Below are positions 15,305 to 33,640 of a DNA stretch of 56,547 bases, piece by piece. The notes under the pieces were generated by a model. It was not told where the DNA came from. It did not search any database and worked only from the letters and a program-made list of their open reading frames with translations. Every line of letters starts with the position of its first letter. Within the stretch, counting starts at the first letter, position 1. Position numbers and translations under genes: made by a program. Origin of the DNA: a virus (lineage: Duplodnaviria; Caudoviricetes); the IMG/VR virus record IMGVR_UViG_3300033388_006544, positions 1 through 56,547 of that record; one strand, given 5' to 3'.

Positions 15305-15706
15305 TTAATGGGCCATTACCTTATGTGGAGGTGGCCCGCCTTTTTTATTAACTATATTAACACTTTATGTCTTGTTGGGACACTACTCAATATGGAGTGG
15401 CCTACTACATTTAATAATAATATTAGATAGTTAACCCCGCATATAGACTCTTTGGCCACGGGCCACTGCTTTTTTCTTAAAAGAAAAAATAGTACTGGCC
15501 ATGGCCCAAAATTACCGAGACCCTTATATATAGAGGGTTTCAGCAGGGACAGTGGCATACAAGTAGTGGCCGTAAAGATACTTAACAGACTGTTATATAT
15601 AGAGAACAATTTGGGACACTGGTTTTGAGTAGTGTCCCAGGCATAAAGAACAATAGTAGGTCGCAAGCAAGACCTTAATGAACATAAAGTCTCTATATAT
15701 AAGGAG
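15305..15706. other. Putative replication origin, iteron array A
   Basis: Non-coding region just downstream of the primase; about 10 AGTG(G/T)CC / GG(C/A)CACT-type motifs in both orientations; TATATATAGAG tracts. Confidence 0.65.
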
Positions 15707-15709
15707 CTT

Positions 15710-17296
15710 TTATTCACAACTCGACTCCGCAATCTCCCAGGTTCTTATTCTTGATGAATCAAACCTTTTACGGGGTTCAGTTACTTTAGATCCCAGCTTC
15801 CTCAGAAACTCACACAATAGCGTTCTAGTGAACTTTGCATTCTTAAAGCGTAGTTCTTCCTCCAGGTGCGTCAAAGTGTAGTAGAGGGTGCCCTCATCTA
15901 TCACACAGCTATTTTTGAGCATAGCGGGAAGACTCATATGTTCAGAATCTTTTTGCATGTTCCATTGGGCCATCCACTCACCGAGAATTTCTTTTATGAT
16001 TCCGAGTTCGGATTCTTCTATGGATACCTTTATTTCTTCCGCCGATTCGAGCCAAGTCCTTACCAGATCTAGCCATTTTTCTTGTTTCGGAGGATTAAAA
16101 ACTACCCTGGTAGCCTCCACTATCTTATTTATTGTTCGCCTGCTAGACATAAGGTCGTCTACCATAAGCAGCGTGGTTCGATCCTGTCCAAGGTCCAGAC
16201 TATATTTTGTGCTTCCATCTGGATATTTCATTATGGTAATCTTTTTGACTGCCTCTGCAATGCCGTGAAAATGTTTCTGCTCATGCTCACGGTATATTGA
16301 GTTAACGATTTTTTTGATATCCTTTAAGGAAAGCGGCGGAGTATTGCTCTTATTCCACTCCCCAAGGAAGACTATTGTCTCATCTTTGGTATATTTCTTC
16401 TCTAAATAATTTTCCGAAAGTCGTGTGGCCATGACACTGGTTTCGACTGTGACGATATCTTGTGCTACAAGGGTCTGCACTGCCGTGGCTTGCACTGCTG
16501 GCACCTGTGCTGTCGGTTCTTCGCTCAGTTCTGGTTCTGAGAAATCTGGCATATCGTGTGATGCGATAAATCTGAACTTATCCACCAGATCCAACATATC
16601 TTCTTTGGTATGCCCAATAGCAAACCAATCTGAAACATCGCCTTTATCGGGTAAGCCTGGAAGTTCAACAATACTAACCGACCCAGCTTTCCCGTCCAAA
16701 GATCGAGCTATCTCTAAGGCATGTTTTTTCCCAGGCTTGTCATTGTCTGGTAATATAACGCACTCTCTGTTCTTCAGAGAGTCCGAATATTCCACTATCC
16801 AACTACTCGCCCCGCCTGCATTGGTGGTCGCTACCAACCCCTGAGCTGCGAGTGTAGCGACATCCTTCTCACCCTCACAAATAAATACCTGCTCTGCCAC
16901 TAAAACCTGTGGCAGGTTATACAAGACCCGCCTTGTATCCTTTAGGTTCCAGACCCACCCACCGCTGCCATTTGGTCGGCGTTGCCTGAAAGTTTTGGGT
17001 TCGAAACGGCAGACCTGATATAACAGATTACCTTTTTCGTCCACATAATCATAAGTCTCAACCAATTTCTTTTTTGCTACCATGCTTTTTTCAGTCCACA
17101 AGTTTCTTCTCTTAAGTTCTTCCAGGACAGCAGACTGTGAGCAGCCAGCGTGACAATGGAACAATATCTTTCCATTGGATACGCTAACGGACAAGCTTGA
17201 CTCCCTGTCATCGTGTACAGGGCAGTGGCACTGCCAGGAATTATCTCCGTTGGGTTTGCCTTCAAGGGCACCAACAATTTCCAAAACATTATTCAT
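15710..17296 (-). CDS. DNA primase: Zn finger + TOPRIM + PriCT-like + C-terminal putative DNA-binding domain; no helicase domain
   Basis: CPVHDD...CHAGC; ICEGEKD; LPDND; KGDVSDW; EWNKSNTPPL..IVNSI; no Walker A motif. Confidence 0.88.
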   Translation of the reverse strand: MNNVLEIVGALEGKPNGDNSWQCHCPVHDDRESSLSVSVSNGKILFHCHAGCSQSAVLEELKRRNLWTEKSMVAKKKLVETYDYVDEKGNLLYQVCRFEPKTFRQRRPNGSGGWVWNLKDTRRVLYNLPQVLVAEQVFICEGEKDVATLAAQGLVATTNAGGASSWIVEYSDSLKNRECVILPDNDKPGKKHALEIARSLDGKAGSVSIVELPGLPDKGDVSDWFAIGHTKEDMLDLVDKFRFIASHDMPDFSEPELSEEPTAQVPAVQATAVQTLVAQDIVTVETSVMATRLSENYLEKKYTKDETIVFLGEWNKSNTPPLSLKDIKKIVNSIYREHEQKHFHGIAEAVKKITIMKYPDGSTKYSLDLGQDRTTLLMVDDLMSSRRTINKIVEATRVVFNPPKQEKWLDLVRTWLESAEEIKVSIEESELGIIKEILGEWMAQWNMQKDSEHMSLPAMLKNSCVIDEGTLYYTLTHLEEELRFKNAKFTRTLLCEFLRKLGSKVTEPRKRFDSSRIRTWEIAESSCE

Positions 17297-17448
17297 GCGC
17301 TACTCTCCATTTCTTTGAGAAATTTTTTCATCTGGATCACCGCTCCGTGTGCTAATATCGCTTCATGTAGATCTTTGATGTGTATTGCTATGGATTCGGT
17401 TTCTTGAAGTTCAGATATTCTGAGGTTAAGAGCTTCTATGAAATTCAT
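17293..17448 (-). CDS. 51-aa hypothetical protein, paralog of 17576..17734 (not in ORF track)
   Basis: MNFIEALNLRISELQETESIAI...; GAGG RBS; ATGA overlap with the primase. Confidence 0.65.
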   Translation of the reverse strand: MNFIEALNLRISELQETESIAIHIKDLHEAILAHGAVIQMKKFLKEMESSA

Positions 17449-17575
17449 TTTAACCTCTTATTATATTTCTTTTAAAAGGCATCCAATATCTCTTCCGATC
17501 CATCTTTTACCATAACATCGCAACAATATCTCCCGTTTTTCCATAGCTGTTCTCCGTTTCTGCGTCTGTTTTGAT

Positions 17576-17734
17576 TTATTCTCGCGTTTCCGCAAGAAGT
17601 CTTTCCATCTGAGCTATTATTCCATAAATCAGTCTCGCATCATAGAAGTTTCCTCTTTTTATCGCCAGAGCTTCGTCTTCCTTGAGTTCAGATATTTTAA
17701 GTTCGTAGGCTTTAATTAAGTCCATTGAGTCCAT
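17576..17734 (-). CDS. 52-aa hypothetical protein (not in ORF track)
   Basis: MDSMDLIKAYELKISELKEDEALAI...; TGATG overlap with VRR-NUC. Confidence 0.65.
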   Translation of the reverse strand: MDSMDLIKAYELKISELKEDEALAIKRGNFYDARLIYGIIAQMERLLAETRE

Positions 17735-18141
17735 CAGCTCTTCACCTTTTTTAGTACTGCTCTGACATCGGCCACCGACCGAGCTATAGCAGAGAATCCT
17801 CCGGCTTCCACGTTGTCGTTGAGATATTTTTTTTGCAGTTCCGTCGGCTTTGTCAATCTACGCTTAACCTCTATTACCACAGATCGACCCAAATAGCAAC
17901 CCACAATATCGCTCACGCCACCTTTACTCCATGGCCCTTGAGCAATCTTTGCGAAGTTTGACGAGGGAACAGTCTTCAGGTAATCCGTTATACTCTTCTG
18001 GATCTTTTTTTCGGGACGGTCGTCGTCGTCAAGGTGCAAGTCCATCACCTGAGGTGAAAGTTTTATTATGCCATTGCTATTTCCGTGTTTCTCTTTTTTC
18101 ACATTTACTCCTTCTGCAGTTTCTCTGTCGTTGTTTGACAA
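17734..18141 (-). CDS. VRR-NUC (PD-(D/E)xK) nuclease
   Basis: EKKIQ...GVSDIV...IEVKR...PTELQ...G. Confidence 0.9.
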   Translation of the reverse strand: MSNNDRETAEGVNVKKEKHGNSNGIIKLSPQVMDLHLDDDDRPEKKIQKSITDYLKTVPSSNFAKIAQGPWSKGGVSDIVGCYLGRSVVIEVKRRLTKPTELQKKYLNDNVEAGGFSAIARSVADVRAVLKKVKS

Positions 18142-18176
18142 TTAAGCCTTCCTTATTATATACCTATTGATAAGAG

Positions 18177-18204
18177 ATTATACACTACTTTCAAAATATG
18201 TCAA
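18177..18204 (-). promoter_or_regulatory. Consensus sigma70 promoter for the leftward operon
   Basis: Reverse strand TTGACA-N16-TATAAT. Confidence 0.8.
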
Positions 18205-18231
18205 CAAAATAATGGAGATGTCGGATTTTTA

Positions 18232-18260
18232 TTGACTTTGAGGGACGATTGTGGTATTGT
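18232..18260 (+). promoter_or_regulatory. Divergent rightward sigma70 promoter
   Basis: TTGACT-N17-TATTGT upstream of the SNF2 gene. Confidence 0.55.
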
Positions 18261-18324
18261 GCCGTTAGATTATTTTCGAATCAGTCCTTAACGGTGAGTC
18301 TTGTTTGAAGCATAAAGGAGAATT

Positions 18325-19914
18325 ATGCAAGTTTTTGTAGACAAAAAAAATATTAAACTTTCATTTTCCTACGACAAGGAAAAGGTGGCTAAGTGTCAGT
18401 ATTTTGGGATGCGATGGAGTAAAGTCACTAAACTGTGGTCTGCTCCGAACAACCTGATGAACCGCATTTGCCTTAATAAGCTTTTTTCCGGCTTGCTGCC
18501 ACCAGAACCAGCAGAAGAAATAAAAGAACTCGTTGTTCCCTCCTTCCTTATGGAACATCAGCAGACGGCACTGAGAAAAGCTGCACGGCAGAACAGGAGA
18601 GGCATATACCATGACACAGGCACCGGCAAGACCTGCTCGGCACTAGAGATATATAGACACCATAGAGTAAAAACCCTCGTTATCTGTCCGTTGTCTCTAA
18701 TAGAGGGGGCATGGTTCGAAGAAATTCGCAACAGATATCAAGATATCGACGCAAGTAACCTGTGGGCCGCAAAGAAAAAAAGTCCGTCGGCATTTGACAA
18801 AGCCCTTGAGAAAAATATGGGTATCGTTAACTATGAATCTTTTAGGACCATAGACAAAAGACTCGCCGGTGCTGGCTATAATATGGTTATCCTGGATGAA
18901 TCAGCCAGGATAAGAACGTGGAAAGCAGGGTCAACGGCCGATAAAGTTATTGAATTTTGTGATAACATGAAGTATGTCTATGAATTGTCGGGAGTCCCTG
19001 CACCCAATAGCATGCTGGAATATTGGACACAAATCAGAATACTCGACCCCTTGTTATGGGGCAAGTCGTTCTACAAATTCCGGTTAAAATATTTTTATCC
19101 TGCCGGATATGGTGGATATACCTGGGAGGTTAAGCCCGAATATAAAGAGAAACTAACAACCGATATCCGAACGGTAGCTGAGTATGTGGACAAAAATGAT
19201 GTCTTAGATCTCCCGGATAAGATCGAATCTAAGAGAATATTTCGGCTATCTCCAAAAGAGATGGTCCATTATAAAAATATCAAAAATGATCTTATGACCA
19301 TACTGGAAAACGGAGAACAGATCACCTCTCCCAGCGCTCTGGTGGCCAGAATGAAATTGCGTCAGGTGTCGTCTGGCTTTATTATGGACACGACAACTGC
19401 GGAAGTCAACGGAAAAATAAAGAAGAAAACTGAAATTTTTGATATCGGGAATTCCAAGCTCAACGAGCTTTTAGCCCTGCTCGAAGACATCGGGAAAAAA
19501 CAAGTAATTATCTGGATAGAATTTCAAAAAGAGGCTCTTGTTATCCAGAAAGCTCTAAAAAAGAAAGGGTTAGACAGCGGTATATTGAACGGTACAATAC
19601 CTGAGAATCAAAAACAGATAACGCTCAAAGCTTTCAAGGGCAACGATCTCCAATATATCATCTGCCACCCCAAGTCAGTAGGGTTTGGTCATACCTTGGT
19701 AAATTGCACTGAGAGTATCTATTATAGTATCAGCTACAGCTATGACAACATGAAACAATCCCGAGATCGGATTTACAGAAAGGGGCAGAACAGTAAATGT
19801 TCATACTATTATCTGCTGGCAGCGAAAACGCTAGATTCAGTTATTCTCGATGCCGTGTCAAAGAAAAAAGATACGAGCATGGCTATATTAAATTATCTGA
19901 AAAGCGGAAAATAG
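18325..19914 (+). CDS. SNF2-family (SF2) helicase
   Basis: DTGTGKT, ILDES, LSGVPAPN, GFGHTL, QSRDRIYRKGQ. Confidence 0.92.
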   Translation: MQVFVDKKNIKLSFSYDKEKVAKCQYFGMRWSKVTKLWSAPNNLMNRICLNKLFSGLLPPEPAEEIKELVVPSFLMEHQQTALRKAARQNRRGIYHDTGTGKTCSALEIYRHHRVKTLVICPLSLIEGAWFEEIRNRYQDIDASNLWAAKKKSPSAFDKALEKNMGIVNYESFRTIDKRLAGAGYNMVILDESARIRTWKAGSTADKVIEFCDNMKYVYELSGVPAPNSMLEYWTQIRILDPLLWGKSFYKFRLKYFYPAGYGGYTWEVKPEYKEKLTTDIRTVAEYVDKNDVLDLPDKIESKRIFRLSPKEMVHYKNIKNDLMTILENGEQITSPSALVARMKLRQVSSGFIMDTTTAEVNGKIKKKTEIFDIGNSKLNELLALLEDIGKKQVIIWIEFQKEALVIQKALKKKGLDSGILNGTIPENQKQITLKAFKGNDLQYIICHPKSVGFGHTLVNCTESIYYSISYSYDNMKQSRDRIYRKGQNSKCSYYYLLAAKTLDSVILDAVSKKKDTSMAILNYLKSGK

Positions 19915-19917
19915 TTC

Positions 19918-19945
19918 TTGCAATTTTCTTCAGATGGTGTATAGT
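19918..19945 (+). promoter_or_regulatory. Putative sigma70 promoter
   Basis: TTGCAA-N16-TATAGT before an AGGAG RBS. Confidence 0.55.
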
Positions 19946-19968
19946 GTAGTCAGAATACAGGAGAACAT

Positions 19969-20208
19969 ATGATGTTTTTATATAAAATTTCACAAGATGT
20001 AAATGAAGATTGTGACACTTTTACCTCGGCTATAGTTTGCGCCGACAATAAAGAAGAGGCAAGGATGATACATCCTGACGGATTAGAATGGGACGGCCGG
20101 CCTGGGCGTTATTGGTGCGCATCGAAAGACGTTATGGTGTCAGGTGTAGGTGTATCTTTCGACTACATAAAAAAAGGCGTTATTTTGGCTTCCGCCGAGG
20201 ATCTATAA
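19969..20208 (+). CDS. Conserved phage hypothetical protein
   Basis: SAIVCADNKEEARMIHP...GVILAS; good RBS. Confidence 0.7.
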   Translation: MMFLYKISQDVNEDCDTFTSAIVCADNKEEARMIHPDGLEWDGRPGRYWCASKDVMVSGVGVSFDYIKKGVILASAEDL

Positions 20209-20219
20209 GGAGACGGCAA

Positions 20220-20693
20220 ATGTTAGAATCAAAAGATACAATGACGTTGGAAGGTAATCCACTGGATTTTTTCGGTGGTGATACCGAAGAAAGCCCGGTC
20301 GATATCGTTCTACTCGCAGAACAATATGGAAAGGAAAAGACAAGCATAAAGACCGAAGAGAATAATCTTAAAGGCAGAAAAGAAAAGTTACTTAAAAAAG
20401 AGACCGAACTTTTTGCTATAATGGAAGGCTTGAATCTGGAATCTTTCAGTTCTACAGAACATACTTTTTTTAAAAAAGTTGACTCTTACGCATCAGTTGA
20501 CGCCAGCAGTACAGAAAAAGCCCATGAGTGGATAAGGGGTGCCGGATTTGATGACATAATAAAGCTGGCTGTCAACGCCAGATCATTATCAGCGGCAATA
20601 AAAGAAAACTTTGAGACCACTGGAGAGGTTCCTGGAGAAAATGAGGGAATAAAAATTCGAACAGTTAACAGGGTGGGGGTAAGAAAAAGATGA
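20220..20693 (+). CDS. Replication/recombination-module protein (coiled coil + beta domain)
   Basis: AAGGAG RBS before ATG 20220; W+R..G..DIIK..VNARSL motif typical of SNF2/VRR-NUC modules. Confidence 0.7.
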   Translation: MLESKDTMTLEGNPLDFFGGDTEESPVDIVLLAEQYGKEKTSIKTEENNLKGRKEKLLKKETELFAIMEGLNLESFSSTEHTFFKKVDSYASVDASSTEKAHEWIRGAGFDDIIKLAVNARSLSAAIKENFETTGEVPGENEGIKIRTVNRVGVRKR

Positions 20694-20869
20694 AAATGGT
20701 TGAGTTTACGTTGTTTACGGACAACAAAATTACTTTTGTCGTTAATAATATATCTGCTATTGAAAATGCGAGTCCCGTACAAACCTCAATATATGTTGTC
20801 GGCGACCAGGAAGAGTACACAGTACTTGAGACTTACGAAAACGTAGTCAAAAAAATAGCAGAAGCATAA
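20690..20869 (+). CDS. 59-aa FlbD/SwrD-like protein, copy 1 (not in ORF track)
   Basis: MKMVEFTLFTDNKITFVVNNISAIE...TVLETYENVVKKI. Confidence 0.65.
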   Translation: MKMVEFTLFTDNKITFVVNNISAIENASPVQTSIYVVGDQEEYTVLETYENVVKKIAEA

Positions 20870-20922
20870 AATACTTTAATCTAAAATATGAAAATAGTTA
20901 ACGGAGTGGGAGTAGGAAAGAG

Positions 20923-21102
20923 ATGAAAATGGTTGAGTTTACGTCAAAGATTGGTAATAACATTACTATTGCTGTTGATAAAATACAATTTTTTCTTCGT
21001 TTCGATGACAACAACACCACAATATATTTTACAGGTGATCCTGACGGTTTTAAACTGCAAGAAACCTACGAAAACGTAGTAAAAAAAATAGCAGAAGCAT
21101 AA
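20923..21102 (+). CDS. 59-aa FlbD/SwrD-like protein, copy 2 (not in ORF track)
   Basis: MKMVEFTSKIGNNITIAVDKIQFF...KLQETYENVVKKI. Confidence 0.65.
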   Translation: MKMVEFTSKIGNNITIAVDKIQFFLRFDDNNTTIYFTGDPDGFKLQETYENVVKKIAEA

Positions 21103-21133
21103 ACAACCAAAGAAAAAAGGAGAAAAGTACAAA

Positions 21134-21832
21134 ATGGCAGAGACAAAAGACGTAGCAGTCAAGGTAGGAGAATATATGCCGGTAGTCGGCGCAGACCAGT
21201 TCGACCTCGGTGATAACATGGAAGGAGTTGAGGCACAGCTTCCACAAATAAAGATACTCCATCAAGCTGAAATGTTTCTTCTTCCCGATGGTTCCAAGGT
21301 ACAGACATTTACCGGAGTTATCATTGATATGAACAGAACAAATGCTTACTGGATCAAATCTTACGAAAATGGAAGTACCGATCTTCCAGATTGCTTCAGT
21401 TTGAACGGCGTAACCCCGGACATGTCCTCCCAGGATATACAGAGTGAGTCTGGAAGTTGTGTCGATTGCCCAATGAACCAATTTGGGAGTTGTTCGAGCG
21501 GTGGCAAAGGTAAGGCATGTAGGAACAATAAAAGGGTACACGTTTTGGTAGGCGGGTCCATGATGCCTATGCGTTTGACATCTCCGCCGACCAGCATAAA
21601 ATCGATTGACCTATACGTATCTCTTTTAACTTCGCAAAGTATACCTTATCAGTTGGTTGAAACTGAGTTTTCGCTTAACCAGATCAGTGATACTGTGAGC
21701 GAAGTGATTTTACGGAAGGTTGGTCCCGCCTCAATAGTGAAGACCGTCGAAGACGCACAAAAACTCAAAGCGCTTATCACTCAGTGGCGAGGAATAATGC
21801 GTGGAGAAATAATTACCGGAAACGAAACATAG
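21134..21832 (+). CDS. Putative ssDNA-binding protein with Cys cluster
   Basis: PDCFS..CVDCPMNQFGS..GKGKAC..PPTSIK pattern; sits in the replication module. Confidence 0.6.
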   Translation: MAETKDVAVKVGEYMPVVGADQFDLGDNMEGVEAQLPQIKILHQAEMFLLPDGSKVQTFTGVIIDMNRTNAYWIKSYENGSTDLPDCFSLNGVTPDMSSQDIQSESGSCVDCPMNQFGSCSSGGKGKACRNNKRVHVLVGGSMMPMRLTSPPTSIKSIDLYVSLLTSQSIPYQLVETEFSLNQISDTVSEVILRKVGPASIVKTVEDAQKLKALITQWRGIMRGEIITGNET

Positions 21833-21899
21833 AGATTTTAACGATAGCCCGGCCTAACAGCGGTCGGACTGAATTTTCTTAAATGGAGAAATTGTAAAA

Positions 21900-22154: not shown

Positions 22155-22226
22155 GGATTTTATCAATAGCCAGGCCTGTCAACGGCCAGATAAAGGCCTG
22201 GCTGAACTTCATTTAAAGGAGAAAAA

Positions 22227-22472: not shown

Positions 22473-22485
22473 TAAGGAGACTCTA

Positions 22486-26537: not shown

Positions 26538-26570
26538 AACGCAACATACAACATGTGAGAGGTGTGCGCC

Positions 26571-27494: not shown

Positions 27495-27718
27495 AAAATA
27501 TAAGTGTTGACATACTGGACGATGAAGACGAGAGTGAGTGCGAGAATGAATATGAGAGTGGATACGACGACGGATTTAGGGATGGATATGATGACGCGTA
27601 TGATTATGACCCTGAAGATGAAATCCCGAGAAAAACCCCAGACGAAGACCTGGACGGGTGCAGCGCCAAATATAGCGCCGGATATAAAACCGGATACAGA
27701 AATGGATTTAAAGAGTAG
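27491..27718 (+). CDS. Acidic GxxxG-repeat protein
   Basis: SGYDDGFRDGYDD and AGYKTGYRNGF; ATGA overlap. Confidence 0.7.
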   Translation: MKNISVDILDDEDESECENEYESGYDDGFRDGYDDAYDYDPEDEIPRKTPDEDLDGCSAKYSAGYKTGYRNGFKE

Positions 27719-27790
27719 TGTGAAGAGTAGTGTGAAGATTATGACGACCAACACTTTTCAAAAAATATCGATAAAAATTGCTCCAAGCAC

Positions 27791-27840
27791 TTGACTTTTC
27801 TCTCATATGATATATATTGTTTCTAACAGACAAAAATCTA
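27791..27840 (+). promoter_or_regulatory. Repeated promoter cassette, copy 2
   Basis: TTGACT-N16-TATATT followed by GTTTCTAACAGACAAAAA. Confidence 0.8.
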
Positions 27841-27858
27841 ACCACTGGAGGAACAGAA

Positions 27859-28134
27859 ATGATACACGACAAAAAAGACCCATCATACAATTTTGTTTAT
27901 GACGTAGCATATGAGGATGGATACGATGACGGATTTGATGACGGCTACAATCTTATTACATATAGCGAAGTATGTGATACCGAAGGATTAGACGCTCGAA
28001 GTGCTCTCGGGGATACATACGATGATATAGATATCTCGGATGATATTTCAGATGACGCCTATCTGGAAGGGTATACTATAGGCTATGATGTTGGATACAG
28101 TGCTGGTCGTGACGCAGAGGGTAACCCAAAATGA
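27859..28134 (+). CDS. Acidic GxxxG-repeat protein
   Basis: DGYDDGFDDGY and EGYTIGYDVGYSAG; GGAGG RBS directly after promoter copy 2. Confidence 0.75.
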   Translation: MIHDKKDPSYNFVYDVAYEDGYDDGFDDGYNLITYSEVCDTEGLDARSALGDTYDDIDISDDISDDAYLEGYTIGYDVGYSAGRDAEGNPK

Positions 28135-28436
28135 AAAGAATGGTGGCGGTAGACCTAAGCCGGGCATATCTCCTGGCCAGGCACAACTACGAAGGAAAAA
28201 AGGTCTTAGCTGATACCTGGCTAAGTGCAGAGCGACGCTGTAAGGCAATAACGCTCTACGTCGAGACAGGTAAAGACTTCAACACCTTCTTCCATCGGCT
28301 GAAAGATGTACCGCCATCTCTGTGGTACGTCTTGTCGGTCAAAGCGCTGGAAACCTTTCGAGATAATTTAGACGAAATATGGCATTATGCCTATTCGGGC
28401 AAACTCAACAAAATCGTGTGGTTGGTAGGAGAATAG
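28131..28436 (+). CDS. Hypothetical protein
   Basis: ATGA overlap with the previous gene. Confidence 0.6.
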   Translation: MKRMVAVDLSRAYLLARHNYEGKKVLADTWLSAERRCKAITLYVETGKDFNTFFHRLKDVPPSLWYVLSVKALETFRDNLDEIWHYAYSGKLNKIVWLVGE

Positions 28437-28438
28437 TT

Positions 28439-28642
28439 ATGATAGTTAACGGATTATACACTGGAAGCAAGGGTAGTAAGACACAAGATTTAAGGAGATT
28501 CACTGAACAGTGGGCAGATTTCTCAGATGCCGAAGCTCAGATACTCGATAAAGATGATGCAGATTTTATCGGTGGCAGTCTTTTTCCAAAAGAATGGGTC
28601 TCTGACTATTGCGCCCAACCGACTATTAACGTGGCAGAATAA
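28439..28642 (+). CDS. Hypothetical protein
   Basis: AGGAG RBS before ATG 28439. Confidence 0.55.
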   Translation: MIVNGLYTGSKGSKTQDLRRFTEQWADFSDAEAQILDKDDADFIGGSLFPKEWVSDYCAQPTINVAE

Positions 28643-28643
28643 T

Positions 28644-28829
28644 ATGAAAAAACGAAACGACGATAATGTTGACAATGGTGTTGACAATAAAGAGCTAAGA
28701 GAACGGATAATATTGACAAAAATAAGGAGAAAAGAGATGGAAGCTCTTCTCCTTGAAGCCATTACCGAGACATTGGAGACATTGGAGACATTGGAGGAAT
28801 TACATGAAGAAAACAAGGATGAAAGTTGA
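28644..28829 (+). CDS. Small coiled-coil hypothetical protein
   Basis: Packed ORF containing 3 x GAGACATTG (ETL) repeat. Confidence 0.5.
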   Translation: MKKRNDDNVDNGVDNKELRERIILTKIRRKEMEALLLEAITETLETLETLEELHEENKDES

Positions 28830-29007
28830 AGGCATTGTACTTGATGCACTCACTGAGGCCATCAGAAAAGGATTGAATATGGAAGACAGTGAAGCTATCT
28901 GGGGAGGTACAAAGGAAGAATATATCGAGGACCTCATGCAAGGCTGGCTGGACGAAGAGGATGGAGGTATAGCACTAGACAGACTAGTCAGTCTGATCAT
29001 TTATTGA
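28819..29007 (+). CDS. Acidic hypothetical protein
   Basis: MKVEGIVLDALTE...; packed ORF. Confidence 0.5.
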   Translation: MKVEGIVLDALTEAIRKGLNMEDSEAIWGGTKEEYIEDLMQGWLDEEDGGIALDRLVSLIIY

Positions 29008-29008
29008 T

Positions 29009-29512
29009 ATGCGGTGGGCTGTACTGGCTGGGTGTATAATATTCTTATTGTTAGATTTTAAGGTAGTTGTCTCAGATAATTATAGACCAAAGGTAAAAGA
29101 AATGACGAACATCGAGAGACAAATAGTGGAACACGAGGGTTTTGTGTCGACAGCTTTTAGAGGCCCCGAGGGAGCACTGCTTATAGGTTATGGCCGAAAC
29201 CTGGAAAGTAAGGGCATGACTAAAGGTGAAGCCAGAACACTACTGATAAACGACATAAGGGACTGCGAATCCGATCTATTTAAAATATTCGGTGATTCTT
29301 TCGAATCTATGAGCTTAGACCGACACAACGCCCTCATCGATATGCGATATACCCTGGGAGCAACAGGTTTCAGGACATTCAATAAAATGATAAAAGCCGT
29401 CAAGAATAAAAACTATCCTCTTGCCGCTAAAGAAATTAAGAATAGTCTGTGGTACACACAGGTCGGATCACGTGGAGACGATATATACAAACAAATGAGA
29501 GGTAGCGACTAA
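29009..29512 (+). CDS. GH24 (T4-like) lysozyme with N-terminal TM segment
   Basis: HEGF...IGYGRNL, ALIDMRYTLG, FNKMIKAV, AAKEIKNSLWYTQVGSR. Confidence 0.85.
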   Translation: MRWAVLAGCIIFLLLDFKVVVSDNYRPKVKEMTNIERQIVEHEGFVSTAFRGPEGALLIGYGRNLESKGMTKGEARTLLINDIRDCESDLFKIFGDSFESMSLDRHNALIDMRYTLGATGFRTFNKMIKAVKNKNYPLAAKEIKNSLWYTQVGSRGDDIYKQMRGSD

Positions 29513-29513
29513 G

Positions 29514-29717
29514 ATGATAACCAATAGGGGTGGTGAGCAGCTTAAAATTAAAACAGTAATAACTGTCGAAGTGGAACATCAACTGTGCCTAGATTTTTAC
29601 GACAGCGAGGAAGAGGCCTTGGCCATGGAAAGAGATTTTATATGCAGATGTCCGCTGGAAGCGATAAAACTGTATAAGAAAAATGCCGTCATTGCGACGA
29701 GCGTCGAAAGGATATAA
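29514..29717 (+). CDS. Hypothetical protein
   Basis: Packed ORF with GAGG RBS. Confidence 0.5.
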   Translation: MITNRGGEQLKIKTVITVEVEHQLCLDFYDSEEEALAMERDFICRCPLEAIKLYKKNAVIATSVERI

Positions 29718-29803
29718 AATGAAATACACGGATATAACTTTCTTCTTTTTTGTTGTCAGCGTTGGAGCAATAGCAGCAATTTTGTTCATATAAGGGGAAA
29801 AAT

Positions 29804-30247
29804 ATGAGAGAAAAAGAGCGATCAGTTAAGTGTAAGTCGAGGCACAGAGCAGTGCTGATTGAGTACCTGAGTAACCCAGACAATAAACCCGTCAGCCGGA
29901 AAAAGCTGTCCACTGATGTTTTAGGATTTTCCGAAGGCACAGTACTGTATCAGATATTCTCCCCAGACGAGCTTAAGGATATCGAATTTGAGGCTCTGGA
30001 ACTTAGGCGTAAGTGCTACGCAGCACAGCTCGCCAAAGTTGATACAGGTCTACTCGCAAAGGCAGCTACTGGAGATCCTGCGGCGGCTAAATTGGCATAT
30101 CAGCGCTTTGAAGGATGGTCCGAAAAGCAGATCAAAGAGTTTGTTATGGATGGACCATTCTTGGCCCAAATGTTTCAGATTTTTCCGCCCGAGATAGCAG
30201 AGCAAGTAAAAGCTGCGCTTGTAGCCAGGCAAGGAGAGTTAACGTAA
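29804..30247 (+). CDS. Putative terminase small subunit / HTH protein
   Basis: N-terminal HTH-like segment, then VDTGLLAKAATGDPAAAKLAYQRFEGW, typical of TerS-like proteins. Confidence 0.6.
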   Translation: MREKERSVKCKSRHRAVLIEYLSNPDNKPVSRKKLSTDVLGFSEGTVLYQIFSPDELKDIEFEALELRRKCYAAQLAKVDTGLLAKAATGDPAAAKLAYQRFEGWSEKQIKEFVMDGPFLAQMFQIFPPEIAEQVKAALVARQGELT

Positions 30248-30642
30248 TGAGGACGTCCAAAGTTGTCGTTGTATGCGGATCGAGGCGATATGTCGAAATG
30301 ATGGCGGTCACCGAATGGCTTATCCAGCGTGACGAGCATGCGATTACAATAGGCCTCGGCCTTCTTCCAGATTGGTACCCTTACCCACTCAACCACTTAG
30401 CCGAATACGAGGGGTGCTCTTCTGAGATGGATAAGTTGTATCTCGAAAAAATAAATCTTGCGGATGAGCTGTTTGTCGTCGATTACGAAAATTATATTGG
30501 CGAAAGTACCAGGAATAAAATAGCTTATGCCGAAACATGTAATGTGCCTGTCAGATATTTTAGCAAGGAACCTATCGGACAGCAAATCTTACAGTTAGTA
30601 GCCAAAGGAAATCGATGTTCGGTCAGCAAGTTCTATAATTAG
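30247..30642 (+). CDS. NDT/DUF4406-like Rossmann-fold protein
   Basis: VVVCGSRRY...KINLADELFVVD..NYIGEST...AYA; ATG 30247. Confidence 0.7.
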   Translation: MRTSKVVVVCGSRRYVEMMAVTEWLIQRDEHAITIGLGLLPDWYPYPLNHLAEYEGCSSEMDKLYLEKINLADELFVVDYENYIGESTRNKIAYAETCNVPVRYFSKEPIGQQILQLVAKGNRCSVSKFYN

Positions 30643-30774
30643 ATAGGAGTAAGCCATGAAAGATTTTAGGTTTGGCAGGTTTATTATTCTTTTCAACAAG
30701 GGGAGCAACGAGAAAGGTGTTGCGTGGTACAGTGTCCACTTCGGCATCAAACAAAAACCGAAAAAAAATAGAGA

Positions 30775-31134
30775 GTGAAAATGAAAAAGGCTGATAGAGT
30801 AAAGATATGGGAAAAGTATGACAAACATTGTGCTTACTGCGGCAAGCTCCTAGACTACCCGGATATGCAAGTAGATCATATTATCCCTCGGAGGGGTGGC
30901 AGATGTCCATCGGCCGAAAATATGGAAAATATGAACCCTAGCTGTAGACAATGTAATCACTACAAGCGGAGTCACTCGCTAAAGAGATTCCGACAGCTTG
31001 TTCGTACTTTAGATAAGAGAGTTAAAGCTCACTATATTAATAAGGTGGCTGTCGATTATGGCATTATAATAGAGGCTAAGCCCTGGGATGGTGTATTTTA
31101 TTTCGAGAGATGTCTCAAGATTAAGGGGAATTGA
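30775..31134 (+). CDS. HNH endonuclease
   Basis: HCAYCG...VDHIIP...NMNPSCRQCNHYK. Confidence 0.92.
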   Translation: MKMKKADRVKIWEKYDKHCAYCGKLLDYPDMQVDHIIPRRGGRCPSAENMENMNPSCRQCNHYKRSHSLKRFRQLVRTLDKRVKAHYINKVAVDYGIIIEAKPWDGVFYFERCLKIKGN

Positions 31135-31135
31135 A

Positions 31136-31378
31136 ATGTTTAGAGTAACGACATCAACATACAACTATCTGCCGATGGACGTTGACCGTAAGACCTCTGG
31201 TTTCGATAATCGTGGTCACGACTATTTATACGAGGATTATATTGTAATCCAGAAGAAAGGGAGGACTGTGTTTTGCGAGCCAGTGTCAGGGCTACCTAAA
31301 TGTGTGGAAAAAATACAAGAACTCCTGGATATAGCCTACAGTAAAGGGATGGCTGACGGAGATAATAATAAAGACTGA
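31136..31378 (+). CDS. Hypothetical protein, paralog 1
   Basis: STYNYLPMDVDRK...IQELLDIAY. Confidence 0.7.
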   Translation: MFRVTTSTYNYLPMDVDRKTSGFDNRGHDYLYEDYIVIQKKGRTVFCEPVSGLPKCVEKIQELLDIAYSKGMADGDNNKD

Positions 31379-31413
31379 TGAGATAAAATGTCTTAAGATT
31401 AAAAGGAGTCAAA

Positions 31414-31644
31414 ATGCTCGACGTATCAACATCAACATACATGTACCTACCCCCGGACGTTGACCGTAAGGTATTCGACCTAGGCGTAGATGACGATTAC
31501 ATGGACGATATCTATATGGTGGTCCGCAGAAAAGGGAAGACTATATATTGCAAGCCTTTAGCGAAAACGTCCAGCAAAGGGAGTGCGATCCAAGAACTTA
31601 TTGATACGGCCTTCGATGAGAAGGGATCTTACGGAGCTTATTGA
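31414..31644 (+). CDS. Hypothetical protein, paralog 2
   Basis: STYMYLPPDVDRK...IQELIDTAF. Confidence 0.7.
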   Translation: MLDVSTSTYMYLPPDVDRKVFDLGVDDDYMDDIYMVVRRKGKTIYCKPLAKTSSKGSAIQELIDTAFDEKGSYGAY

Positions 31645-31661
31645 GGAGACTAATAAGATAT

Positions 31662-31682
31662 TCCCCGGTAATTCACCGGGGA
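31662..31682. terminator. Hairpin between convergent genes
   Basis: CCCCGGT-AATTC-ACCGGGG; no clear U-tract. Confidence 0.45.
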
Positions 31683-31747
31683 GCCGTAAGCAGAGATATA
31701 TTTACCACTCTAAAGGTGTTGTGAGAGTTATCACAGTCGATACGTTT

Positions 31748-32044
31748 TTACCAACCAGCCAAACTTGCGTTAGATTTTCCTTGTTTATCTTCCTTTATCT
31801 GACAATCCCTTTTAGCGACTTCAAAAGCGCGATGGACCTCGCTCTCATAACCTTGGGCGCGTGCTTGCATATCCGCCAGTTCGCTGCCAACACCTAAGAC
31901 TATATAAAATTCTTGTTTTTCTGCGTAGGTACATTTATTACGTATCCATCCTATTAATTCTTTCTCATGGCCAGCATCGATTCCGTCAAAAAAAGCTTGC
32001 CGTGCAGCTAAATTATATTTTTGTTTTAGGCTTGCAGTGTCCAT
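31748..32044 (-). CDS. Hypothetical protein under promoter copy 3
   Basis: AAGGAG RBS before MDTASLKQKY. Confidence 0.7.
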   Translation of the reverse strand: MDTASLKQKYNLAARQAFFDGIDAGHEKELIGWIRNKCTYAEKQEFYIVLGVGSELADMQARAQGYESEVHRAFEVAKRDCQIKEDKQGKSNASLAGW

Positions 32045-32082
32045 AGTCTTTCTCCTTAAGATTTTGTGTTTTGTGTTTAGTT

Positions 32083-32130
32083 TTTTTTTGTCTGTTAGAA
32101 ACAATATAAATCTTCCTAAAAAATAGTCAA
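32083..32130 (-). promoter_or_regulatory. Repeated promoter cassette, copy 3 (leftward)
   Basis: Reverse strand TTGACT-N16-TATATT followed by GTTTCTAACAGACAAAAA. Confidence 0.8.
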
Positions 32131-32208
32131 GCCCTTTTGAGCATTTTTTTTGATATTTTTTAAAAAAAGTTTTTACGGTGGGCTGTTTCTGAAGAATAAA
32201 TAATACAA

Positions 32209-32229
32209 CTGGGGACAATTTGTCCCCAG
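32209..32229. promoter_or_regulatory. Perfect 10-bp inverted repeat (operator-like)
   Basis: CTGGGGACAA-T-TTGTCCCCAG. Confidence 0.5.
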
Positions 32230-32314
32230 ATGGTCGATTTATGGTCGATTTATGGTTGGTTTATGGTTGGTTTATGGTTGGTTTATGGTTGGTTTATGGT
32301 TGGTTTATGGTTGG
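32230..32314. repeat. 7.7 x 11-bp tandem repeat
   Basis: ATGGTCGATTT x2, then ATGGTTGGTTT x5 plus a partial unit. Confidence 0.95.
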
Positions 32315-32871
32315 AGATCAGATGTGGCAATTTCCCAGGTGCGGATTCGCACGCTGCCAAACCTTTTAACGGGTTCAGTTCTTTTTGCTTTCATTTTACG
32401 TAAAACCCCACAAAGAAAGGTTCTGGTAATCTTTACATCTTGTAAGAATAATTTCTCTTTGAGATTGGAAAGTTTGAAAAACATTATGCCAGATTTAATA
32501 ACGCAGCTATCGTTTATCCTGACAAAAGTGTCAAGTTTTTCCGAACCTGACCTACTGTTCCACTGTGTTAGCCATTCGGATAACAACATTGTTGTTATAT
32601 CAAGCTCGGGGAATGCCGATATTTTTTTCTCTTCAGCACATTCCAGTAATCCCCTTATTAAATTAACCCAGCCTTTTTGATTGGGGGAAACATACCATTT
32701 GCCAGTAGCCTCTATGATTGATCCCATTGAAAGCCTCGCAGACATTAGCTGCCCCACGGTAACAACAGCCCGCCCGCCATTTGTTAAATGCAAAGCGTAT
32801 CCTGTGCTGCCATCAGTGTATTTCAAAATAACTATTTTCTCTATCACGTTTTCTGCTAATTCTGTTTTCAT
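32305..32871 (-). CDS. Stand-alone paralog of the primase C-terminal domain (188 aa)
   Basis: AAGGAG RBS; aligns end to end with the last ~180 aa of 15710..17296 (KYxDGST, LMS, EAT, QWN, SCVI, TRT.LC..LRK, TEP.KRF.S.RIRTWEIA). Confidence 0.88.
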   Translation of the reverse strand: MKTELAENVIEKIVILKYTDGSTGYALHLTNGGRAVVTVGQLMSARLSMGSIIEATGKWYVSPNQKGWVNLIRGLLECAEEKKISAFPELDITTMLLSEWLTQWNSRSGSEKLDTFVRINDSCVIKSGIMFFKLSNLKEKLFLQDVKITRTFLCGVLRKMKAKRTEPVKRFGSVRIRTWEIATSDLQP

Positions 32872-33094
32872 GTTTTTTCTCCTTTTATATGATACAGAAT
32901 ACCCTTTACGTGACCCGATATCCATCAATCAATTTAAAACGTGTTCCACTGGACAGGCTTAGACTAGAAAGACTAAGGGAGTGGACATGAACACTGCTAA
33001 AACTACAATGTGTCGGTGATGTACTGACGAACAATCACTTATGTGATATTTAGCCCCAAAAGTATAAAATACCCTATATCCTTAGTGACAGTAA

Positions 33095-33640
33095 GAGGGC
33101 CGGAGGTTCTGAGCAGTGGCCGGTTTTAGACAGAAAAAGTATTAATTATATTAGATACTTGCAACTTCTTGCCATATCGTTTTTAGCTCCGGCCGAACGA
33201 CTTCGTTAATAATATCAGATAGCTATACCCTCATGAGGGTACTTTGGGCCACGGCCACTGCTCTTAAACTATTTTATTTTTCTTGGCAGTGGCCGGTGGC
33301 CCAGGCTCCAAAAAATCGCTGAAACTCTTATATATAGAGGGTTTCAGGCTGGGCCGGAGGTATTTGAGCAGTGGCCGGAAGAATATGTAGATCCTTTATT
33401 CATGAGGGTTTGTAGCTATTTCTATTTGGGCCACTACTATTTAGCAGTGGCCGGTTTAAAGAACTCTCTTATATATAGGAGATTATTTTCGTAAATTATA
33501 AATATCAACCTCCGTCCGTAAAACTACTACAAGTCGCAAGCAAGACTTCTTTATTGTAAAAACTCTCTATATATAAGGGGGATTTTTATAACGGGTTTAT
33601 TCCTGAGCTGGGACACTACCATCTTGAGCTTGGGCCAAGC
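33095..33640. other. Second origin-like iteron array B
   Basis: (A/G)GCAGTGGCCGG x4, GGGCCAC/GGGACAC motifs, and blocks identical to array A. Confidence 0.65.

What the first reader, a model, noticed from the sequence alone, without database searches (positions are those of the whole stretch)
15305..33640. Two diverged, collinear origin-like iteron arrays bracketing the early region
Seen: arrays A (15.3-15.7 kb) and B (33.1-33.64 kb) share, in the same order and orientation, TAATAT(T/C)AGATAG, a GGCCAC(G)GGCCACTGCT block, CTTATATATAGAGGGTTTCAG (15523/33327), an inverted iteron pair, GTCGCAAGCAAGAC (15660/33533) and CTCTATATATAAGG (15691/33565). The spacers have diverged, so the motifs rather than the whole sequence appear to be under selection. 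Established analogy: phage P4 needs two iteron sites (ori1 and crr) bound by the C-terminal domain of its primase. Inference: a bipartite or dual origin, or an origin copy repurposed as a packaging or late-switch site just upstream of terL.
Basis: partly seen in the sequence, partly recalled or inferred. Interest (0 to 1): 0.85.

Follow-up and report, generated by a model that had tools for sequence, protein, structure and literature searches.

The report
Paired origin-like iteron arrays, primase-linked
This uncultivated phage carries two related arrays of repeated protein-binding sites, each beside a copy of the same DNA-binding-type primase tail domain, which most likely mark where its DNA replication starts or is controlled.

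Summary
Arrays A (15.30-15.71 kb) and B (33.05-33.66 kb) are diverged, collinear homologues: local alignment score 94, against 22.3 +/- 2.7 for shuffles. Their 10-mer half-site AGYAGTGKCC occurs 9 times in the 56.5-kb genome, always inside the arrays.

Each array is built from three elements: dyad iterons, one wide dyad around an A/T-only spacer, and TATATATA boxes.

Array A abuts the stop codon of a primase. That primase has a PriCT-1 domain and a 190-aa C-terminal domain (CTD) predicted to hold a winged helix. Array B abuts a stand-alone paralogue of the CTD (44% identity, E 2e-48) and lies upstream of terL.

Two other complete relatives also keep exactly two arrays at the same two places. 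One of them uses a different half-site in both arrays and has a different primase catalytic domain on the same CTD. A-type arrays follow the CTD gene in 8 of 8 loci with downstream sequence.

Best reading (about 0.6): these are cognate binding arrays of an initiator primase, forming a dual origin or an origin plus an accessory site. The closest parallels are SPP1 oriL/oriR, P4 ori/crr and ColE2 Rep. Binding and origin firing are inferred, not shown. I rate it a new variant of a known kind.

The parts
15300..15709 (.). Array A as a whole: the intergenic stretch between the primase stop codon and the next leftward ORF.
15378..15402 (.). A: upstream narrow dyad, GGACACTACT ... GGAGTGGCC (imperfect).
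15416..15429 (+). A: AATAATATTAGATA box. It is conserved about 25 nt before the wide dyad in all 11 arrays aligned.
15454..15507 (.). A: wide dyad. Left arm GGCCACGGGCCACTGCT, a 20-nt A/T-rich spacer, and a degenerate right arm AGTACTGGCCATGGCCC.
15523..15543 (+). A: TATATATA box 1, the 21-mer identical in B.
15546..15571 (.). A: narrow dyad 2 (degenerate left arm; right arm AGTAGTGGCC).
15593..15604 (+). A: TATATATA box 2.
15613..15638 (.). A: narrow dyad 3, GGGACACTGGT-TTTG-AGTAGTGTCCC.
15660..15673 (+). A: GTCGCAAGCAAGAC. This motif is genome-specific: it is shared with B, but relatives carry a different sequence at the same place.
15691..15704 (-). A: TATATATA box 3, inverted relative to boxes 1 and 2. 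It lies 6 nt from the primase stop codon.
15710..17296 (-). Primase gene, 528 aa: CHC2 Zn-ribbon, Toprim, PriCT-1 and a C-terminal domain (CTD). The CTD is aa 340-528, nt 15713-16279, and is the proposed iteron binder.
14980..15279 (-). Small CxxC...CxxC ORF directly downstream of array A. It is syntenic in G001 and G002 and is an alternative candidate binder.
32305..32871 (-). Stand-alone paralogue of the primase CTD (188 aa counted from M20). It reads away from array B.
33050..33660 (.). Array B as a whole, lying in the 1.2-kb gap before the late genes.
33097..33121 (.). B: dyad GGGCCGGAGGT ... AGCAGTGGCC. The same unit recurs at 33351-33376.
33144..33221 (+). B: two AATWATATYAGATA boxes, at 33144-33157 and 33208-33221.
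33246..33302 (.). B: wide dyad. Left arm GGGCCACGGCCACTGCT, a 22-nt spacer that is 86% A/T, and right arm GGCAGTGGCCGGTGGCCC.
   Evidence: (I13).
33327..33347 (+). B: TATATATA box 1, the 21-mer identical in A.
33351..33376 (.). B: narrow dyad.
33428..33452 (.). B: narrow dyad GGGCCACTACT-ATTT-AGCAGTGGCC (9 of 10 positions complementary).
33466..33481 (+). B: TATATATA box 2.
33533..33546 (+). B: GTCGCAAGCAAGAC.
33565..33578 (-). B: TATATATA box 3 (inverted).
33610..33644 (.). B: terminal half-site GGGACACTACC followed by a short palindrome. B-type arrays in relatives have a full dyad at this position.
34145..35779 (+). Large terminase gene, the downstream landmark of array B.
   Evidence: phrog_2, E 5.6e-23.

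Best explanation
A and B are two cognate arrays of binding sites for the C-terminal module of the phage's own primase. That module is PriCT-1 plus a ~190-aa domain with a predicted winged helix. In other words, the primase acts as an 'initiator primase'.

Proposed mechanism (inferred, not shown):
- CTD molecules occupy the dyad half-sites (GGMCACTRCT and its complement).
- The easily melted elements lie between and beside these sites: the wide dyad's 20-25-nt A/T-only spacer and the (TA)4 boxes placed 20-24 nt before each narrow dyad. These open, and the tethered primase primes there.
- Array A, abutting the primase gene, is the likeliest primary origin.
- Array B binds the same specificity, and in this phage also a primase-less paralogue encoded next to it. 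It is either a second origin or an accessory site such as an enhancer, a looping partner or a fork barrier, like SPP1 oriR or P4 crr.
For: 1. The arrays are homologous, and their motifs occur nowhere else in the genome.

2. The arrays are physically linked to the CTD.
- An A-type array starts within about 10 nt of the CTD gene's stop codon in 8 of 8 loci that have at least 200 nt downstream: window, G001, G002, L035, L036, L038, and partial arrays in L037 and L039.
- A stand-alone CTD paralogue (44% identity over 180 aa, E 2e-48) flanks array B in 3 of 5 B loci: window, L028 and L040, but not G001 or G002.

3. The CTD is a primase-targeting module.
- It is fused to three unrelated catalytic types. 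These are the DnaG-type domain here, Prim-Pol in G002, and Prim-Pol or AEP-TOTE in remote homologues.
- All 10 of the 10 long homologues I scanned carry primase-type domains.
- The family is rare: 30 representatives among 1.84 billion proteins.

4. The fold fits DNA binding. AF2 models have pLDDT 86 and 89.6.
- The C-terminal half matches winged-helix DNA binders: JetABC chain 8dk1_E, Z 6.7; TcpK-oriT, Z 6.4 (Foldseek probability 0.95-0.99); ORC2 winged helix, Z 6.0.
- The N-terminal half matches SaPIbov1 Rep (Z 6.1) and SCCmec Cch (Z 6.0).

5. The pairing is conserved and specificity co-varies. G001 has 13 of 13 half-site hits in two arrays at the same two places. G002 uses ASTAGTGGGTC instead, with 15 of 15 hits at up to 1 mismatch in its two arrays.

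6. The architecture is origin-like: inverted iterons around an A/T-only spacer (8 of 11 arrays by a strict pattern).

7. Precedents exist.
- ColE2 Rep primase unwinds its origin with PriCT-1 plus HTH and no helicase (PMC5862659 passages; PMC4980987 passages).
- SaPI origins lie just downstream of pri-rep, with oppositely oriented iterons around an AT-rich region bound by a winged-helix CTD (bioRxiv 10.64898/2026.10.17.759575, Introduction).
- SPP1 oriL and oriR are both bound by gp38 (PMC6316719 passages).
Against: - No binding, melting, priming or replication-start data exist.
- All fold matches have Z below 8, and no Foldseek hit reaches E 0.001. The tool itself calls such matches middling.
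- GC skew follows gene orientation and shows nothing at either array.
- The exact conservation of (TA)4 and its flanks is more than a simple unwinding element needs.
- In this window, array A's wide dyad has a degenerate right arm.
- Two more distant relatives (L008 and L009, terL 65% identical) have no such array within 4 kb upstream of terL.
- A conserved small Zn-ribbon ORF next to A could be the binder instead.
- No replicative helicase was recognised among the ORFs I scanned, so fork assembly is unexplained.
Confidence: 0.6

Rival explanations
1. The arrays are transcriptional control regions. The TATATATA boxes would be promoters of a phage-specific class, and the dyads operators for a winged-helix regulator (the stand-alone CTD paralogue). 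Together they would time the early-to-late switch, much like two operator clusters sharing one repressor.
For: - Each T-box sits at a fixed 20-24 nt before a dyad, a promoter-operator-like geometry.
- B lies directly upstream of the late genes.
- The paralogue has no catalytic domain.
- The box sequence is conserved more exactly than an unwinding element needs.
Against: - The DNA-binding-type domain is fused to a primase in all 10 of the 10 long homologues scanned. A transcription factor has no reason for that.
- G001 and G002 have the arrays but no stand-alone paralogue.
- In G001 and G002 the genes flanking array A have their own perfect TTGACA-17-TATAAT promoter outside the array. The window's early promoter is likewise canonical.
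- The sigma-70 scan calls no T-box as a promoter.
- In both arrays boxes 1-2 and box 3 face each other.
Confidence: 0.15
2. The dyads act as nucleic-acid structures rather than protein sites: cruciforms, transcription terminators or RNA processing hairpins at operon boundaries.
For: - The dyads can fold.
- Some are flagged as terminator-like.
- Both arrays lie at boundaries between transcription units.
- The arms differ between genomes on both sides (GGCCACT versus GACCCACT).
Against: - All stems in a genome share one sequence, which structure alone does not require.
- Of about 41 narrow dyads in 11 arrays, only 1 has arms that are fully complementary over 10 positions, and 24 have 7 or fewer matches.
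- The C/A variants at one half-site position are mixed within single dyads without compensation.
- There is no Rfam family hit.
- U-runs mostly do not follow the stems.
Confidence: 0.05
3. The arrays are packaging (pac), partition or centromere-like sites, or merely recombination-prone repeats marking module boundaries. In that case they have no role in replication.
For: - B lies upstream of terL.
- Within G001 and G002, A and B share 188-nt and 108-nt identical stretches, so they do recombine or convert.
- Contig L035 joins a B-type left flank to an A-type right flank.
Against: - A has the same build as B but is tied to the primase gene in 8 of 8 loci.
- No ParA/ParB, integrase or recognisable small terminase gene was found beside either array among the ORFs scanned.
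- Repeats with no site-specific function would not keep a genome-specific half-site in more than 10 copies while their spacers diverge.
Confidence: 0.07

Closest known systems
Bacillus phage SPP1 oriL / oriR, bound by gp38
   Same: - There are two similarly organised origin sequences (repeats plus an AT-rich unwinding element) about 13 kb apart in the circular genome.
- One lies at the initiator gene and the other in the late region.
- Both are bound by one phage protein.
- oriR is proposed to stall forks and trigger the theta-to-sigma switch (PMC6316719 passages; PMC3485210 abstract).
- Here the arrays are 14-17 kb apart. A lies at the primase gene and B at the head of the late genes.
   Different: - SPP1 uses direct repeats, and oriL lies inside gene 38.
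- gp38 is not a primase and works with a loader and a DnaB-type helicase.
- Here the sites are dyads, A lies just 3' of the gene, and the presumed binder is fused to the primase.
- No gp38 homology was looked for or seen.
Satellite phage P4 ori1 / crr with the alpha protein (details recalled; only the existence of separate crr and ori elements was seen, in a figure legend of PMC9942202)
   Same: Two cis sites kilobases apart share iterons that are recognised by the C-terminal domain of a primase-containing protein.
   Different: - P4 alpha also contains a helicase. The 528-aa primase here has no NTPase domain by Pfam.
- The P4 alpha C-terminal domain did not appear among the listed fold matches. 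That is inconclusive rather than negative.
ColE2-P9 Rep, an 'initiator primase' with a PriCT-1-HTH module
   Same: - It is a primase with no helicase domain whose PriCT-1 and HTH domains bind and unwind its own origin (PMC5862659 passages; PMC4980987 passages).
- Here PriCT-1 scores 26.8 bits against a cut-off of 21.1, and it is followed by a winged-helix-type domain.
   Different: - ColE2 Rep has an AEP catalytic domain and a minimal origin with two iterons.
- Here the catalytic domain is DnaG-type (Prim-Pol in G002), the arrays are 400-600 bp with 6-8 half-sites, and there are two arrays.
- The ColE2 Rep structure was not among the listed fold matches.
SaPI pri-rep-ori replicons
   Same: - The origin always lies downstream of the primase-initiator genes.
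- Iterons in opposite orientation surround an AT-rich region.
- They are bound by a winged-helix CTD (bioRxiv 10.64898/2026.10.17.759575, Introduction).
- The N-terminal half of the CTD model aligns to SaPIbov1 Rep 8tch_B (Z 6.1, rmsd 3.1, 84 residues).
   Different: - SaPI Rep is a hexameric SF3 or MCM-type helicase. No such domain exists here.
- SaPIs have a single origin.

Membership tests
Iteron-type replication origin (generic) | A cluster of repeated sites of one sequence, confined to the origin. | tested here: met
   9 of 9 exact half-site hits lie in the two arrays. There are 6 (A) and 8 (B) half-sites at up to 1 mismatch.
Iteron-type replication origin (generic) | An adjacent A/T-rich unwinding element. 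| tested here: met
   The wide dyad's spacer is 20-25 nt and at least 86% A/T in 8 of 11 arrays. Each array also has (TA)4 boxes. Their function as an unwinding element is inferred.
Iteron-type replication origin (generic) | Location next to or inside the initiator gene. | tested here: met
   Array A starts within about 10 nt of the primase-CTD stop codon in 8 of 8 loci.
Iteron-type replication origin (generic) | The initiator binds the iterons, and the site supports replication. | not testable with these tools
   This needs EMSA or footprinting and a replicon assay.
SPP1-type dual origin (oriL/oriR) | Two similarly built origin sequences more than 10 kb apart, one at the initiator gene and one in the late region. 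| tested here: met
   The gap between arrays is 17.3 kb here, about 14 kb in G001 and about 17 kb in G002.
SPP1-type dual origin (oriL/oriR) | Both sites are bound by the same origin-binding protein. | not testable with these tools
   Inferred only, from half-sites that are shared and co-vary between the two arrays of each genome.
P4 alpha-type primase-helicase with ori and crr | A helicase (NTPase) domain in the same polypeptide. | tested here: not met
   Pfam and PHROGs find only Zn-ribbon, Toprim and PriCT-1 in the 528-aa protein.
P4 alpha-type primase-helicase with ori and crr | A C-terminal sequence-specific DNA-binding domain. | tested here: inconclusive
   The winged-helix matches have Z 5-6.7, below the tool's confidence level. 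P4 alpha is not among the listed rows.
ColE2 Rep-type initiator primase (PriCT-1-HTH) | PriCT-1 followed by an HTH-type DNA-binding domain, with no helicase. | tested here: inconclusive
   PriCT-1 is met (26.8 bits against 21.1) and absence of a helicase is met. The winged-helix fold is only middling, and ColE2 Rep is not among the listed matches.
ColE2 Rep-type initiator primase (PriCT-1-HTH) | An AEP-type catalytic domain. | tested here: not met
   The window protein has a DnaG-type Zn-ribbon and Toprim. The G002 orthologue does have Prim-Pol, E 2.9e-21.
SaPI pri-rep-ori | The initiator is a ring helicase (SF3 or MCM type). | tested here: not met
   There is no such domain in the primase. 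The SNF2- and UvrD-type helicases are encoded elsewhere.
SaPI pri-rep-ori | The origin lies downstream of the gene, with inverted iterons around an AT-rich region. | tested here: met

The most novel reading that the evidence does not exclude
The pair is a division of labour built from one module. Array A, together with the primase-fused CTD, fires replication. Array B, together with the primase-less CTD paralogue, forms a non-priming nucleoprotein complex. That complex would handcuff or loop to A, or block forks, to switch replication mode just ahead of the packaging genes.

Because A and B are direct repeats that still convert each other, they can also excise the whole primase/early module as a self-replicating circle. 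Within G001 and G002 the two arrays share 188-nt and 108-nt identical tracts. The L035 junction (B-type left flank, array, primase) is exactly the predicted circle joint.
Probability: 0.12. Interest if true: 0.8.

Novelty: new variant of a known kind. Interest (0 to 1): 0.55.

Why it matters
Replication origins of uncultivated phages are almost never identified. Here sequence alone yields a testable trio: a rare primase-tethered winged-helix-type domain, its likely dyad iteron, and two conserved target arrays.

- It extends the 'initiator primase' idea (ColE2 Rep) to DnaG-type primases of tailed phages.
- It shows one targeting module swapped between three primase catalytic types.
- It offers a natural pair of binders, one fused to a primase and one primase-less, for asking how a second origin copy is used.
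- The within-genome homogenisation of the two arrays is a clean example of concerted evolution of cis sites with their binder.

Tried and rejected
- **Phage database (blastn, distant mode).** No relative for the A region and one trivial hit for the B region, so relatives came from IMG/VR and metagenome scans instead.
- **Rfam (gathering thresholds).** Only a tRNA was found, nothing in the arrays.
- **GC and AT skew.** They follow gene orientation and are uninformative about an origin.
- **Are the left-flank genes of A and B paralogues?** No. The 99-aa ORF and the 207-aa ORF share no similarity. The G001 gene left of its B array is also unrelated to the window's.
- **IHF site.** The consensus is recalled. 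The strict pattern WATCARNNNNTTR has 4 hits in the window, none in the arrays, against 7 expected. The conserved AATWATATYAGATA box is therefore not called an IHF site here, although by eye its counterparts in G001 and L028 fit the consensus.
- **T-boxes as sigma-70 promoters.** Not called by the scan.
- **Complex prediction, two copies of the CTD.** No answer. I draw nothing from it.
- **The look-up of sequencing runs.** None was listed and no RNA holder was listed. Read laying was therefore not used, and no coverage or terminus mapping was possible.
- **Foldseek against PDB.** No match at E 0.001 or better for either model. P4 alpha and ColE2 Rep were not among the listed rows.
- **Sequence profile against PDB.** Only the pRN1 prim-pol was found, matching the N-terminal columns.
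- **Literature.**
  - Two searches for P4 ori/crr papers found nothing usable, so the P4 details are recalled.
  - Itou et al. 2015 is not held. It is cited only through PMC5862659 and PMC4980987.
  - I made no search for a prior description of this phage group, so I do not claim it is unpublished.
  - I did not ask for supplementary files. Those of PMC5862659 may list similar PriCT-1-HTH primases.
- **Distant relatives.** L008 and L009 have no T-box or dyad array within 4 kb upstream of terL.

Full report
**What the window is.** The window is a complete IMG/VR virus record of 56,547 bp. Its ends repeat 114 nt, so it was assembled as a circle.
- Genes run rightward from 18.3 kb, round the ends, to about 12.2 kb. 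They run leftward from 18.1 kb to 12.2 kb.
- A perfect TTGACA-16-TATAAT promoter sits at 18204->18177.
- The genes recognised include:
  - a primase (15710-17296, minus strand; CHC2 Zn-ribbon, Toprim, PriCT-1) and an endonuclease;
  - SNF2- and UvrD-type helicases, and a metallophosphatase/exonuclease;
  - an HNH nuclease, a lysozyme and terL (34145-35779).
- No DNA polymerase, replicative helicase, integrase or partition gene was recognised among the ORFs scanned. Not every small ORF was scanned.

**Check of the observation.**
- All listed motifs are present at the stated places, in the same order and orientation.
- A and B align locally with score 94 (174 identities in 278 columns). Two hundred dinucleotide shuffles give 22.3 +/- 2.7, maximum 33.
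- The longest exact shared stretch is the 21-mer at 15523/33327.
- The half-site AGYAGTGKCC occurs 9 times, 4 in A and 5 in B, and nowhere else; 0.23 hits are expected.
- With one mismatch allowed there are 21 hits, 13 of them in the arrays, against 7.4 expected.
- YTATATATARR gives 12 hits, 11 in the arrays, against 0.33 expected.

**Anatomy.** Reading the + strand, both arrays and nine arrays from relatives share one plan:
1. one or two narrow dyads, each a half-site GGMCACTRCT, 4-6 nt, then its complement;
2. an AATWATATYAGATA box (3 of 3 exact hits in the window lie in the arrays);
3. a wide dyad with doubled arms around a 20-25-nt spacer that is almost pure A/T and not conserved in sequence (8 of 11 arrays by a strict pattern; array A of this window has a degenerate right arm);
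4. a TATATATA box, followed 20-24 nt later by a narrow dyad, a unit that occurs once or twice;
5. a short motif that is the same in A and B of one genome but differs between genomes (GTCGCAAGCAAGAC here);
6. a last TATATATA box in inverted orientation;
7. in B-type arrays only, one more dyad.

The dyads are poor hairpins. Of about 41 narrow dyads, 1 is fully complementary over 10 positions and 24 have 7 or fewer matches. The two half-site variants (C or A at one position) are mixed within single dyads. This fits degenerate protein half-sites better than selected stems. There is no Rfam family hit.

**Surroundings.**
- Array A begins 6 nt after the primase stop codon and ends at the start of a small CxxC...CxxC ORF.
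- Array B lies in a 1.2-kb gap. On its right are a 74-aa ORF and terL. On its left is a leftward ORF (32305-32871).
- That leftward ORF is a stand-alone paralogue of the last 180 residues of the primase: 44% identity, E 2e-48. This also settles the coding strand there; the overlapping + strand ORFs are not the genes.

**Relatives.**
- TerL and primase scans of IMG/VR gave two other complete genomes, G001 (58.8 kb) and G002 (62.9 kb), plus fragments.
- G001 has 13 of 13 exact half-site hits in two arrays: one upstream of terL, one across the record's ends next to its primase.
- G002 has only one exact hit of that 10-mer. Instead it has its own variant, ASTAGTGGGTC, with 15 hits at up to 1 mismatch, all in two arrays at the same two places. 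Two of the 15 are copies within the 62-nt terminal repeat.
- All three complete genomes thus keep exactly two arrays, 14-17 kb apart, in direct orientation. The half-site changes in both arrays together.
- Within-genome likeness varies: score 94 here (21 nt exact), 385 in G001 (188 nt identical) and 286 in G002 (108 nt identical). G002's arrays score only 24-86 against arrays of other genomes. That is concerted evolution: conversion between the two copies, or selection by one binder.
- A metagenome scan with the CTD gave further loci.
  - A-type arrays directly follow the CTD gene in L035, L036 and L038, and partially in L037 and L039, where the contig ends. With the three genomes this makes 8 of 8 loci with downstream sequence.
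  - The contig behind L004/L033 stops at the stop codon.
- B-type arrays upstream of terL occur in 5 of 5 close relatives with sequence there: window, G001, G002, L028 and L040.
- The stand-alone paralogue flanks B in 3 of those 5: window, L028 and L040, but not G001 or G002.
- Two more distant relatives (terL 65% identical) have no such array within 4 kb upstream.

**The candidate binder.**
- In the primase alignment, G002's protein shares only the C-terminal ~240 residues (PriCT-1 plus CTD) with the window's protein. Its N-terminus is Prim-Pol, not DnaG-type.
- A word-index search with the CTD found 17 proteins, carrying either Prim-Pol + PriCT-1 or a DnaG Zn-ribbon.
- An exhaustive phmmer run over 1.84 billion representatives found only 30. 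The CTD lies at the C-terminus of 280-670-aa proteins, or stands alone in eight proteins of 174-205 aa.
- All 10 long ones I scanned have primase-type N-termini: Prim-Pol in 5, AEP-TOTE in 3, PriCT-1 only in 2.
- The domain is therefore tied to primases of three catalytic kinds, which argues that its job is to take a primase somewhere.
- AF2 models are confident (pLDDT 86.0 for the CTD, 89.6 with PriCT-1).
- Foldseek finds nothing at E 0.001 or better. Its best rows are SaPIbov1 Rep (probability 0.98) and the oriT-binding winged-helix protein TcpK (probability 0.95-0.99).
- The Foldseek-independent search splits the CTD in two.
  - Residues 86-189 align to winged-helix DNA binders: JetABC chain 8dk1_E (Z 6.7), TcpK 5vfx_A (Z 6.4), ORC2 winged helix (Z 6.0), and many MarR, Fur, PadR and ArgR domains.
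  - Residues 1-86 align to the N-terminal domains of SaPIbov1 Rep (Z 6.1) and SCCmec Cch (Z 6.0).
  - All Z values are under 8, which the tool rates as middling. The fold call is supportive, not decisive.
- The putative recognition helix and wing (TRTLLCEFLRK ... RKRF..SRIRTWEI) are nearly invariant in the family and are kept in the paralogue. This parallels the invariant CACT core of all half-site variants (my inference).

**Mechanism.**
- Shown:
  - there are two homologous arrays of genome-specific dyad sites;
  - they are linked to the two copies of a primase-associated domain of winged-helix type;
  - the pairing is conserved, and the half-sites co-vary between the two arrays of a genome.
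- Inferred:
  - the CTD binds the half-sites;
  - the wide-dyad spacer and the (TA)4 boxes melt;
  - the tethered primase primes there;
  - A is an origin, and B is a second origin or an accessory site.
- Precedents:
  - ColE2 Rep is an initiator and plasmid-specific primase that unwinds its origin with PriCT-1 and HTH, without a helicase (passages of PMC5862659 and PMC4980987).
  - SaPI origins lie downstream of pri-rep, with opposed iterons around an AT-rich region bound by a winged-helix CTD (Introduction of bioRxiv 10.64898/2026.10.17.759575).
  - SPP1 has oriL at the initiator gene and oriR in the late region, both bound by gp38. oriR is proposed to stall forks and trigger concatemer synthesis (passages of PMC6316719; abstract of PMC3485210).
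  - P4 ori/crr is recalled, not read.

**Rivals.**
- A promoter-operator reading is the strongest rival, because the T-box-to-dyad spacing is fixed and the T-box is conserved exactly. Against it:
  - the domain is fused to primases;
  - G001 and G002 lack the free paralogue;
  - in G001 and G002 the gene next to array A has its own perfect sigma-70 promoter outside the array.
- Structure-only readings, and packaging or partition readings, fare worse (see Rival explanations).

**Verdict.**
- It is a new variant of a known kind: dual origin-like sites served by an initiator primase.
- What is new:
  - a rare primase-targeting domain used with DnaG-type as well as AEP-type primases;
  - a primase-less paralogue placed at the second array;
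  - clear concerted evolution of the two arrays.
- No tool could test binding or origin firing. No sequencing runs were listed and the complex prediction gave no answer.

Noticed in passing
window 1-7704 (+), continuing across the record's ends: A giant ORF (at least 2557 aa) with an ART-PolyVal ADP-ribosyltransferase domain (E 1.1e-29) and PT repeats, which makes it a 'polyvalent protein'. The record's 114-nt terminal repeat lies inside it.
   Followed up: partly
L007:378-3044 (G002 terL); the same insertion is visible in L006: The large terminase of relative G002 is 888 aa instead of 544 aa. It carries a LAGLIDADG homing-endonuclease insertion (PF14528, E 2.9e-9) right after the Walker A motif, so it looks like an intein.
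   Followed up: partly
L035 (metagenome contig, 2094 bp): This contig joins the left flank typical of G001's B array (the 200-aa repeat-protein gene) to an array and then to the primase, which is A's right flank. That is the junction expected for a circle excised by A x B recombination. It could equally be an assembly chimera across the ~188-nt shared repeat.
   Followed up: no
G001 and G002 record ends; L004/L033 and L006 contig ends: Several relatives' contigs begin or end inside or right beside an array. This fits near-identical A and B copies breaking assemblies.
   Followed up: no
L008:1579-2271: A more distant relative (terL 65% identical) has no dyad or T-box array. Instead it has about 19 copies of a 36-nt period (GTGAAAACCA N9 TGCGAGCCA N9) lying 1.7-2.4 kb upstream of terL. 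A 225-aa frame is open across it on the minus strand, so it could be a coding repeat or another kind of iteron array.
   Followed up: no
window 15710-17296 compared with L030:421-1830: The catalytic domain of the primase has been swapped between relatives: a DnaG-type Zn-ribbon/Toprim domain here and in G001, Prim-Pol in G002. PriCT-1 and the CTD stay 57-60% identical.
   Followed up: yes
window 32940-33050; L028:230-300; L040 (same region): A conserved stretch lies between the paralogue's start and array B. It contains GTGTTCCAynrGACAG, a CTTAG...CTAAG hairpin and TACAATG. The window copy includes a sigma-70-like site on the + strand, TGGACA-16-TACAAT, at 32982-33009.
   Followed up: no
window 44281-44358 (+): A tRNA-Pro (TGG anticodon) lies among the structural genes.
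   Followed up: no
window 33818-34042; L005, L007 and L028 just upstream of terL: Relatives encode a small, very basic ~50-60-aa protein (MPLKxGK...ISEMIRAGHP...) directly before terL. The window has a 74-aa ORF there (phrog_2423). No recognisable small terminase was seen.
   Followed up: no
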